Assembly (NCBI GenBank): GCA_963844715.1
Contig: CAWJPJ010000007.1
Coordinates: forward strand, 480,001-544,000
Source: an uncultured Phycisphaerales bacterium
GTDB lineage: Bacteria; Planctomycetota; Phycisphaerae; Tepidisphaerales; Tepidisphaeraceae
Direction of reading: 5' to 3'
Length of the DNA: 64,000 bases
Shown: piece by piece, positions 40,112-42,127 of the stretch
Position numbering within the stretch: the stretch's first letter is position 1
How the letters are laid out: each line of letters begins with the position of its first letter
The notes under the pieces: model-generated
Told to the model about the DNA's origin: nothing
Databases searched by the model: none
What the model saw: only the letters and a program-made list of their open reading frames with translations
Translations under genes and position numbers: made by a program

Positions 40112-40697
40112 ATGCCCAGGCTCAAAGCTCCGCAGAGACGTCAACAGTTAATGGGGGTGGCAACCAAGCTGTTCGCGAAATGGGGGTATAACGCGACCAC
40201 GACGGCGGCGATCGCCGATGCCGCCGGCGTGACCGAGCCGATCCTCTATCGTCACTTTTCCAACAAGCAGGATCTGTTCGTCGCCATCACGCGAGCGATG
40301 AGCGAGCAGACGCTGCAATACTGGCGGCAGATGATCGAGGGGGCAGCCGGGCGCGACGGAAAAAATCCGGGCGATCGCCAGGGGATTTCCGGCCCATATC
40401 CGCAAGCTGGAAGACGCGTACCACGTTCTGCACGGCGCGCTGGTGACCAGCCGGGACCGGAAAGTGCTGGCGGTCATCCGGGAACACTATTCGGAGATCG
40501 AAAAATTTTTCAGCGCGATCATCTCGCAGGGCCAGTCAGCGGGGGAATTCCGGCGCGACATGGATCCGAGAATTCCGACCTGGGAATTAATTAATCTGGG
40601 AATCGGATACGCGATGATCACGCTCAATCTGCATCAGGTCGAACATTTTTCGGTGGAAGACGGGATTGATCACATCTTGAGGGGATTGAAAGCTTGA
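40112..40697 (+). CDS. TetR/AcrR-family regulator (frameshift ~40345)
   Basis: ATKLFAKWGYNATTTAAIADAAGVTEPILYRHFSNKQDL. Confidence 0.92.
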
Positions 40698-40703
40698 TGA
40701 GGA

Positions 40704-40786
40704 AATGCTGATTGGTGATTGGTGAATGATGAATTGAAGAGGTGGGAACGGCCGCAATTCAATTCAGCACTCAGCATTCATCATTC
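40704..40786. repeat. heptamer tandem-repeat hairpin
   Basis: aatgctg attggtg attggtg aatgatg aattgaa ... ttcaatt cagcact cagcatt catcatt. Confidence 0.8.
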
Positions 40787-40799
40787 GGAATTTGCCCCT

Positions 40800-41368
40800 A
40801 TAAAGCCAGAAGGCCCACGAAGTGACTCGCGACGTCACCGCGTGGGCCAGCCGTGTGTTTCCACCTGGCGCTCTGGTTCGGACCGATTTTTTCGGCAACC
40901 TGCTCCCGGGCCTGGGCCCGCCTCGATCCAATCAGCATGAACCAACAGTTGCCTGAAGATTCACACAGACGGTAGGTCGCGGCTGTATCCGCCGCGACCG
41001 CGCGCCCAACAGGGCGGCATGGCGGTTTCCCGACTGGATGGCCGTGGGCTTCGCTGTCCCGAGCCCGTTCCTAGGATCGCAGTCCCGTCGCACCCCGTTA
41101 CCAGAGCGCTGAGGACAAGCTGGGCTCGATCCGCCGGAGGTCGGGGGACTCTCTCCCCGCGGTTCGGCGGATCACAGGCGGCGACTCTAACCCGGATTGC
41201 CGCAGGCGTTTTTACGCCGAGCGTTTACGGGTGGCCTCATCGCTGGCCGCCGACTTTCGCCGTGCCCGCATTTGAGTTTGCTTTGCACGGTCTTCGCGTT
41301 AGAAAGTCGGACTTTTACGTCAGGAGCGTTTTCCTTTTTCGCCGGTCACTTCCGTGCCCGACGACGTG
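40800..41368 (-). ncRNA. candidate large structured non-coding RNA (~570 nt), family not recognised
   Basis: Back-to-back stems across the whole interval, four GNRA-capped hairpins on the minus strand, TATATT -10 box at 41378-41373, terminal hairpin at 40812-40848; no credible ORF. Confidence 0.65.
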
Positions 41369-41539
41369 GGGAAATATATCGCGGCAAACAAAAAAATCGG
41401 AGAATTATCGACAGCTAAAAATTACTTATCCACCGGAGCGCGCAAATGCTTTGGGGACAAGCGAAATCGCGGTGCATAAACCGGTGGATAATCTGATCCA
41501 CATGCCGCGGAAGAGGAAAAGATTGATACGATATCATGG

Positions 41540-42127
41540 ATGCAACTCTCTGATCGGGCGGCGGAAGTCCTTTTGAATATGGCCGGGGACCTGATTCGCC
41601 GGAGCCTGGCGCCGGCGGCCGTCGCGGCGGCGAATCCGCCGGTTTTTCCGGATGATCCGGAGCTGGTGCAGCCGGCGGGGTGTTTTGTGTCCCTGCACGA
41701 GAAGGCCGCGCACAATTTGCGTGGATGTATCGGGATTCTTGAAAGTGAAAAGCCGCTGCGCGAAACGCTGGCGGCCGCGGCGGATGGGGTTTTGAAAGAT
41801 CCGCGATTCGTGCATCAGCCGGTGACGTTCGAGGAGCTGGCTCGGCTGGAGATTGAAGTGACGGTGATTGGGCCGATGAAGCCGGCGGCGAGTCCGCTGG
41901 ATTTTGATCCTCGGGAGAATGGGATTTTTTTGACGCTTGCGGGTCGGTCCGGGTGTTTTTTGCCGCAGGTGGGGAGGGAGACGGGGTGGTCGCGGGAGCA
42001 GCTTTTGTCGCGGCTATGCACGGAGAAGATGGGGTTGACTGGGGATGCGTGGCGGCGCGGGGACGCGAATTTGCGGGTTTTTAATGCGGTGGTGATTGGG
42101 CCGCGTGCGCTTTCGAGTGAAATCTAA
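41540..42127 (+). CDS. AMMECR1-domain protein (AmmeMemoRadiSam system protein A)
   Basis: GCFVSLH, LRGCIG, DPRF, FLPQVGRETGW, LCTEKMG. Confidence 0.9.
   Translation: MQLSDRAAEVLLNMAGDLIRRSLAPAAVAAANPPVFPDDPELVQPAGCFVSLHEKAAHNLRGCIGILESEKPLRETLAAAADGVLKDPRFVHQPVTFEELARLEIEVTVIGPMKPAASPLDFDPRENGIFLTLAGRSGCFLPQVGRETGWSREQLLSRLCTEKMGLTGDAWRRGDANLRVFNAVVIGPRALSSEI

What the first reader, a model, noticed from the sequence alone, without database searches (positions are those of the whole stretch)
40800..41378. Unrecognised ~570-nt ornate non-coding RNA candidate (minus strand)
Seen: an intergenic block in an otherwise gene-dense region is tiled by stems: ggcccacg/cgtgggcc (40812-40848, inner gtgac/gtcac), ggtcgcggc/gccgcgacc (40975-40999), gatccgccg/cggcggatc (41128-41173), ggcgt/acgcc (41205-41218), ccgactttc/gaaagtcgg (41250-41310, inner ccgtgc/gcacgg). 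Four hairpins have GNRA loops only when read on the minus strand (GGAA 41353-41350, GUAA 41101-41098, GAAA 41029-41026, GAAA 40861-40858). A TATATT -10 box (41378-41373) precedes it and a hairpin plus short U-rich tail ends it, convergent with tetR, so it is not a 5' UTR. Known: GNRA-rich multi-junction RNAs of this size include ribozymes and the OLE, ROOL and GOLLD classes. I do not find the signature motifs of RNase P, tmRNA, SRP or group II introns. Inference: a stand-alone large structured RNA, possibly an undescribed class.
Basis: partly seen in the sequence, partly recalled or inferred. Interest (0 to 1): 0.85.

Follow-up and report, generated by a model that had tools for sequence, protein, structure and literature searches.

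The report
New large knotted soil-bacterial RNA class
A family of soil and peat planctomycete bacteria carries a roughly 565-letter non-coding RNA gene of a kind we could not match to any catalogued class; it folds into a knotted shape and has self-complementary loops suggesting that copies join into dimers or cages.

Summary
Real, and apparently undescribed. Window 41365-40800 (minus strand) is a stand-alone ~565-nt non-coding RNA gene. Both halves are found in 54 of 141 genomes of this family (Tepidisphaeraceae by record titles), with no credible hit in 150 other Planctomycetota. Across 30 homologs, 132 named pairs are 93.8% paired and 78 show double-sided changes, including four long-range pseudoknot-type helices. 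Indels ignore codon phase. A -10 box lies exactly 7 nt upstream in 41 of 49 loci. Metatranscriptome contigs cover the element, but show neither strand nor level. No Rfam family matches (GOLLD, ROOL, OLE, RNase P, tmRNA, group II). Best reading: an abundant self-assembling RNA dimer or cage under DnaA-type promoter control; assembly and regulation are inferred, not shown.

The parts
41426..41496 (-). Upstream promoter module: TCA-NN-TTATCCACC (41491-41483), TTATGCACC (41479-41471, 12-bp tandem) and an inverted box GGTGGATAA (41434-41426); DnaA-box-like. A CAA-N4-TTG-like motif lies near 41455-41441.
   Evidence: At least one strict box in 48 of 50 homolog loci and three in 27 of 50; the only cluster of 3 boxes within 120 bp in this genome. 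All 23 exact module matches in 141 family genomes lie directly upstream of the RNA. The DnaA and IHF consensus sequences are recalled.
41373..41378 (-). -10 hexamer TATATT
   Evidence: TAnnnT exactly 7 nt before the conserved 5' GUCGU in 41 of 49 loci, 8 nt in 4, 6 nt in 1, none in 3; background 0.5% per position
40800..41365 (-). Large non-coding RNA, ~565 nt (46 distinct homolog stretches, 549-1024 nt including ~6-9 flanking nt, variable by helix insertions)
   Evidence: covariation; non-coding; RNA contigs
41339..41364 (-). 5' hairpin P1 with a GNRA loop (GGAA 41353-41350)
   Evidence: 7 of 10 pairs with double-sided changes; loop GAAA 35, GGAA 7, GCAA 1 of 46
41250..41310 (-). P3 arm (CCGACUUU/AAAGUCGG) with inner CCGUGC/GCACGG and a conserved asymmetric loop
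   Evidence: 6 of 8 and 1 of 6 pairs with double-sided changes; 97.5-100% paired
41036..41334 (-). Long-range pair LR1: GG 41334-41333 with CC 41037-41036
   Evidence: Both pairs show a double-sided change; 98.3% paired. Only 2 bp, so the weakest of the four.
40902..41327 (-). Long-range helix LR2: GCUCC 41327-41323 with GGAGC 40906-40902
   Evidence: 3 of 5 pairs with double-sided changes; 96.6% paired; variants listed
40894..41201 (-). Long-range helix LR3: GGCAAUC 41201-41195 with GGUUGCC 40900-40894
   Evidence: 4 of 7 pairs with double-sided changes; 99.0% paired; pair 41195:40900 E=0.00 and 41196:40899 E=0.42 in my phylogeny-aware null
41069..41076 (-). Palindrome 1, UCCUAGGA, in a junction; candidate intermolecular self-pairing site
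   Evidence: CCUAGG 43, CCAUGG 2, non-palindromic 1 of 46; the 8-mer occurs once in this genome
40909..41043 (-). Conserved core: GGCC 41043-41040 with 40912-40909; GGG 41031-41029 with 40916-40914; CCGCC 41025-41021 with 40922-40918; it encloses three hairpins
   Evidence: 96.9-100% paired, with rare compensatory changes
40880..40929 (-). Pseudoknot LR4: GGAUCGA 40929-40923 with UCGGUCC 40886-40880, crossing the core helices
   Evidence: 3 of 7 pairs with double-sided changes; 99.5% paired
40812..40848 (-). Terminal hairpin with a 7-nt loop that holds palindrome 2, UCGCGA (40832-40827); a short U-rich tail follows to ~40800
   Evidence: 11 of 13 pairs with double-sided changes; loop UCGCGA 45, UCUAGA 1 of 46
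41540..42127 (+). AMMECR1-domain gene, divergent neighbour (context, not part of the RNA)
   Evidence: PF01871 E=1e-35; adjacent in many but not all loci
40112..40697 (+). tetR-family gene, convergent neighbour, frameshifted in this assembly (context)

Best explanation
A stand-alone gene for a new class of large bacterial non-coding RNA that works as a self-assembling RNA structure. Shown: it is a conserved non-coding unit with a promoter-like -10 box and about 25 helices, four of them long-range or pseudoknotted, which clamp the 5' half onto a 50-nt 3' segment (40929-40880). Inferred: (1) it is transcribed on the minus strand from ~41366 to ~40800 and is abundant (0.9); (2) copies pair with each other through the UCGCGA loop, probably the UCCUAGGA junction, and possibly LR1-LR3 acting between chains, giving a symmetric dimer or hollow cage as in OLE, ROOL and GOLLD (0.65); (3) transcription is controlled through the three upstream boxes, most likely by DnaA, tying the RNA to replication or growth state (0.45); (4) the assembly is a dispensable scaffold that holds or stores a protein or RNP cargo (speculative).
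For: Covariation: 132 pairs, 93.8% of cells paired, 78 pairs with double-sided change, against 42.2 in shuffles and 24-33 when slid. Non-coding: 53 of 563 indels are multiples of 3, with no period-3 signal. Palindromes: a palindromic hexamer in 46/46 and 45/46, with double substitutions that keep self-complementarity; PMC12286853 used this same type of evidence for intermolecular kissing loops in OLE (B3) and GOLLD (B8), and found that covarying long-range pairs in ROOL (B4) and GOLLD (B7) are intermolecular. Promoter module tied to the RNA. RNA libraries: one run holds contigs of 374 nt with 1 difference and 119 laid nt with none; another has 1001 contigs on the element.
Against: No experiment on folding, oligomer state or function. 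Each palindrome switch may be one or two evolutionary events (tree); one homolog breaks CCUAGG, and UCCUAGGA could instead form a tiny local hairpin (G009 extends one). My phylogeny-aware test is home-made with 12 null replicates and passes only 7 pairs at E<0.5. The structure was derived from overlapping sequences, which inflates the controls. The boxes end in C rather than the recalled DnaA A, and no such box cluster showed near either dnaA gene. Contigs give no strand, ends or level, and DNA carry-over is not excluded. About 60% of family genomes lack it and some copies are decayed, so it is not essential.
Confidence: 0.55

Rival explanations
1. A ribozyme, monomeric or dimeric: the knotted core with invariant unpaired bases is an active site, in the manner of RNase P or the ORF-less group IIC HYER ribozymes, which dimerise through palindromes.
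For: Six helices converge on 50 nt, and 152 of 564 columns are at least 97% invariant. HYER1 and HYER5 are of similar size and dimerise by palindromic pairing (PMC12990946 passages). Short motifs superficially resemble RNase P (recalled).
Against: No group I, group II or RNase P model scores. The family profile does not hit this genome's own RNase P or tmRNA loci. The bulged base in the P4-like helix varies among U, A and C. No substrate or variable guide segment is evident.
Confidence: 0.15
2. The RNA is the scaffold of a ribonucleoprotein with a dedicated protein partner, as OLE is with OapA; the neighbouring AMMECR1-domain protein is the candidate.
For: AMMECR1 is present in 48 of 56 RNA-bearing and 27 of 85 RNA-lacking family genomes (my tally) and is the divergent neighbour in many loci.
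Against: Kin are not independent, so the association is overstated. Near-complete genomes carry the RNA without AMMECR1 (G218, G109) or AMMECR1 without the RNA (G367). No other gene family is consistently adjacent.
Confidence: 0.15
3. A highly diverged member of GOLLD, ROOL or OLE.
For: Similar size, pseudoknots, GNRA loops, palindromic loops and patchy distribution.
Against: No match at E<=1 with RF02032, RF03087 or RF01071 in this genome (the ROOL and OLE searches had no positive control) or in homolog loci. Not near tRNAs (1 of 52 loci), not found in phage collections, and without a single central linker.
Confidence: 0.07
4. A selfish or mobile element, or mainly a DNA site (a datA-like DnaA sink) with an incidental transcript.
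For: A few genomes hold 2-3 copies; two copies in G423 are 95.6% identical over 745 bp including 130 bp upstream; partial copies exist. E. coli datA is three DnaA boxes plus an IHF site (PMC5742627 passages).
Against: Mostly single copy at a stable locus; no transposase, reverse transcriptase or nuclease family recurs next to it. Duplicates include the promoter, which fits DNA-level copying rather than retrotransposition. datA boxes share one direction whereas the third box here is inverted. RNA-type covariation over 565 nt is not explained by a DNA site.
Confidence: 0.08

Closest known systems
ROOL RNA (RF03087)
   Same: About 550-660 nt, several pseudoknots, no known protein partner, abundant but non-essential, kissing-loop bridges (PMC12286853 passages)
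   Different: No model match; chromosomal in Planctomycetota rather than phage or prophage near tRNAs; insertions at several helices instead of one linker; dedicated upstream box module
GOLLD RNA (RF02032)
   Same: Giant ornate RNA with self-complementary kissing loops and a 3' segment that gathers many regions
   Different: No model match; shorter in most carriers; no tRNA association
OLE RNA (RF01071)
   Same: About 600 nt, chromosomal, dimerises through a palindromic loop whose variants stay palindromic
   Different: No model match; no obligate adjacent membrane-protein gene; four long-range pseudoknot-type helices
HYER ribozymes (ORF-less group IIC introns) and ARRPOF
   Same: Natural RNA homodimers using palindromic pairing, kissing loops or pseudoknots (PMC12990946 passages)
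   Different: No group II domain V/VI or ARRPOF match; own promoter and free ends rather than an intron
Bacterial RNase P RNA type A (RF00010) and tmRNA (RF00023)
   Same: Large pseudoknotted stable RNAs with their own promoter
   Different: Both are encoded elsewhere in this genome and show no similarity to this RNA
E. coli datA / DARS DnaA-box clusters (for the upstream module only)
   Same: Three boxes at fixed spacing with a possible bending-protein site between them
   Different: Third box inverted, ninth base C, and placed at about -127/-115/-69 of a promoter

Membership tests
Any Rfam 15 family | Score at or above the gathering threshold | tested here: not met
   0 hits in the window; 9 weak unrelated hits at E<=10; none on the RNA in 16 homolog loci
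GOLLD | Match to the RF02032 model | tested here: not met
   0 matches at E<=1 in G000
GOLLD | Location next to tRNAs or in phages | tested here: not met
   tRNA in 1 of 52 loci; 0 pattern hits in viral contigs; no BLAST match in phages
ROOL | Match to the RF03087 model | tested here: not met
   0 matches; one search had no positive control
OLE | Match to the RF01071 model | tested here: not met
   0 matches; one search had no positive control
OLE | Adjacent gene for a dedicated partner (oapA) | tested here: not met
   Neighbours vary; AMMECR1 is frequent but not obligate
OLE/ROOL/GOLLD-like homo-oligomers (works like) | Self-complementary loops whose variants keep the palindrome | tested here: met
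   UCGCGA/UCUAGA 46 of 46; CCUAGG/CCAUGG 45 of 46
OLE/ROOL/GOLLD-like homo-oligomers (works like) | Defined RNA-only multimer in solution | not testable with these tools
   Needs mass photometry or cryo-EM
RNase P RNA | P4 helix with an invariant bulged U and the conserved regions CR I-V (recalled) | tested here: not met
   The bulged base of the look-alike helix varies; no model hit; true RNase P RNA lies on C8
tmRNA | tRNA-like ends and a conserved tag reading frame | tested here: not met
   ARAGORN finds none in the window; true tmRNA lies elsewhere on C7; no conserved frame
Group II intron / HYER | Domain V/VI match and intron boundaries | tested here: not met
   No Rfam group II hit; the conserved 5' end follows a -10 box
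Protein-coding gene | Conserved frame and codon-phase indels | tested here: not met
   53 of 563 indels are multiples of 3; conservation by column phase 0.781/0.778/0.773; longest sense ORF 0-138 aa among homologs
DnaA-regulated promoter | DnaA-box consensus at conserved positions | tested here: inconclusive
   8 of 9 match to the recalled consensus at fixed offsets; this lineage's true DnaA box was not established

The most novel reading that the evidence does not exclude
A new class of natural RNA-only nanocage or dimer, the first from Planctomycetota, encoded on the chromosome without a phage or protein partner, possibly very abundant in soil and peat transcriptomes, and expressed under direct control of the replication initiator DnaA, which would link an ornate RNA assembly to the bacterial cell cycle or dormancy.
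Probability: 0.3. Interest if true: 0.95.

Novelty: categorically new. Interest (0 to 1): 0.86.

Why it matters
Only a handful of bacterial non-coding RNA classes exceed 500 nt, and the functions of OLE, ROOL and GOLLD remain poorly understood; PMC12286853 leaves open whether nanocage formation is common among large natural RNAs. This unrelated class gives a direct test: it has predicted self-pairing sites, natural compensatory variants, natural insertions of up to ~370 nt and a cultured carrier (L072, Fontivita pretiosa B-254 by its record title). Its conserved promoter module also offers a concrete regulatory handle on function. 'Categorically new' refers to the RNA family; the behaviour I predict for it (oligomerisation) has precedents.

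Tried and rejected
Rfam scans: nothing. Viral contigs with two patterns and phage BLAST: nothing; plasmid BLAST gave one 37-nt chance hit. The metagenome pattern scan gave 9 hits, none scoring above 10 bits with the 3'-core model, so that collection was not usefully sampled. Weak model hits outside the carrier set were rejected: G087, G110, G024 and G584 lie inside long ORFs (98-104); G088, G118 and G167 have no full-profile support; G034 and G057 (E 0.01-0.02) were not fetched. The one 'Bacillota'-labelled record (L091) has the same contig and coordinates as a family-f1 hit, so it is not evidence of another phylum. A tmRNA-like tag frame and an RNase P resemblance were considered from memory and not supported. 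The sigma-70-like site at 41432-41404 was set aside in favour of the conserved -10 box. An oriC reading was not supported: GC skew is uninformative and G423 has two module copies far apart.

Full report
Observation. The minus strand folds at z=-5.67 against -3.11 for the plus strand. The block lies between a convergent tetR gene and a divergent AMMECR1 gene. RNase P RNA and tmRNA are encoded elsewhere in the genome, and the element is single-copy here.

Distribution. A pattern scan of the genome collection gave 50 loci. 49 are titled Tepidisphaeraceae, Tepidisphaerales, Phycisphaerales, Phycisphaerae or Planctomycetota, including cultured Fontivita pretiosa B-254 (L072); one is titled Bacillota but also turns up among the family hits. 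A 3'-core covariance model hit 57 of 141 family genomes (55 strong, 1 partial, 1 chance) and a 5' model hit 55 of 141 (54 strong, 1 chance); 54 genomes have both halves. Among 72 genomes at least 90% complete, 25 and 24 matched, each count including the chance hit. In 150 other Planctomycetota the 3' model found 0 and the 5' model 1 weak hit inside an ORF. In a class sample, 7 weak hits lay outside the family; the 5 fetched were chance. Other phyla were covered only by the exact-pattern scan. Unpublished G004 is one row in alignments A1 and A3, model R1 and the tallies; no claim depends on it.

Structure. I kept 46 distinct full-length stretches (549-1024 nt, median identity 71%) after dropping 19 duplicates, four partial copies, one with an internal deletion, one masked copy and the 5'-truncated G007. 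In a home-made phylogeny-aware test, all 7 pairs at E<0.5 are canonical pairs, two of them long-range. On 30 homologs chosen for short insertions, a 132-pair model had 93.8% of cells paired and 78 pairs with double-sided changes, against 42.2 in shuffles and 24-33 when slid. The model came from overlapping sequences, and four helices score poorly (49-80%), largely through misalignment. Four long-range helices stand out: LR1 (41334:41036), LR2 (41327:40902), LR3 (41201:40894) and LR4 (40929:40880). With three core helices, LR2-LR4 lock almost every base of 40929-40880 to six different partners. Insertions of up to ~370 nt fall at a few peripheral points.

Not coding, not a leader. Only 53 of 563 indels are multiples of three and conservation has no period 3. 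Downstream genes differ in identity and direction.

Palindromes. The terminal loop is UCGCGA in 45 of 46 and UCUAGA in one, a double change that keeps self-complementarity. A junction carries CCUAGG in 43, CCAUGG in 2 and a broken form in 1. UCCUAGGA occurs once in this genome, and CCTAGG is ten times rarer genome-wide than CCATGG. PMC12286853 (passages and Discussion read) used palindrome-preserving switches to support intermolecular kissing loops in OLE and GOLLD, and found some covarying long-range pairs to be intermolecular bridges. I infer homo-oligomerisation. The switches are few events, and the junction palindrome could fold locally.

Promoter. TAnnnT lies exactly 7 nt before the conserved 5' end in 41 of 49 loci. 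Further upstream are three boxes at about -127, -115 and -69 (inverted): at least one strict match in 48 of 50 loci and three in 27. An exact module pattern matched 23 places in 22 of 141 genomes, every one directly upstream of the RNA, with 0 control matches. The boxes resemble the DnaA consensus as I recall it, with C at position 9. PMC5742627 (passages) says some DnaA boxes regulate transcription and that datA has three same-direction boxes with an IHF site. The genome has two dnaA genes, with no such cluster seen near them, so the binding protein is not established. A second, partly degenerate module precedes another gene at C8:877951 (E=1e-14).

Expression. Twenty RNA runs from 14 studies hold words of the region, four with a share of 0.28 or more. 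In the four runs laid (three studies), contigs fall in bins 40812-41417, apart from two low-depth stray bins in one run. One run has near-identical pieces (374 nt with 1 difference; 119 nt with none). Another has 1001 contigs with summed depth of 2-5 x 10^5, which hints at high community-wide abundance. Contigs show neither strand, ends nor level, and DNA carry-over is not excluded.

Mechanism and rivals. I favour an abundant, dispensable, self-assembling RNA (dimer or cage) under DnaA-type promoter control (0.55). Rivals are a ribozyme (0.15), an RNP with a dedicated protein such as AMMECR1 (0.15; present in 48 of 56 carriers against 27 of 85 non-carriers, confounded by kinship and not obligate), a mobile element or DNA site (0.08) and a remote GOLLD, ROOL or OLE member (0.07).

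Novelty. No Rfam family matches. Nine literature searches showed no description of this RNA. Term searches in the main texts of PMC11109978, PMC8632094 and 10.64898/2026.10.21.760802 gave no Planctomycetota or Phycisphaerae mention; for the last I also saw the abstract and outline. Their supplements and the preprint's cluster database were not seen and could hold this region, and most subscription journals are not in the library. PMC12990946 was read as passages. Other papers were seen only as listings with the start of the abstract. Verdict: a real and apparently new class of large ornate RNA; interest 0.86.

Noticed in passing
G000 C8:877951-878073 (outside the window): A second copy of the upstream module, with two boxes, a degenerate third box and a -10-like hexamer at similar spacing, precedes a 440-aa ORF instead of the RNA. 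It is either a second regulon member or an emptied RNA locus.
   Followed up: partly
window 40112-40697: The tetR gene is split by a frameshift between about 40335 and 40420 relative to the G001 protein; a pseudogene or an assembly error.
   Followed up: partly
window 40700-40792: A palindromic multi-copy intergenic repeat (REP-like) just past the RNA's 3' end, with several other copies in this genome and many in relatives; not part of the RNA.
   Followed up: partly
L159, L160, L161 (G423): Three full copies in one genome: two are 95.6% identical including 130 bp of promoter, and one is about 74% identical in its alignable parts.
   Followed up: partly
L008, L088, L066, L158, L162: Decayed or deleted copies: 5' part missing (L008), internal deletion of ~85 nt (L088), loss of the LR3 5' strand (L066) and fragments (L158, L162).
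   Followed up: partly
L058 and L050: Homologs of about 1020 nt, with 355-369-nt insertions at one peripheral helix; the inserts were not analysed.
   Followed up: no
G000 C6:952626-956065 (outside the window): An array of 24 tRNA genes in 3.4 kb; no GOLLD or ROOL match in the genome.
   Followed up: no
window 40969-40934: Opposed U-U bases in the helix under the 40966-40935 hairpin switch together to C-C in several homologs, suggesting a conserved non-canonical pair.
   Followed up: no
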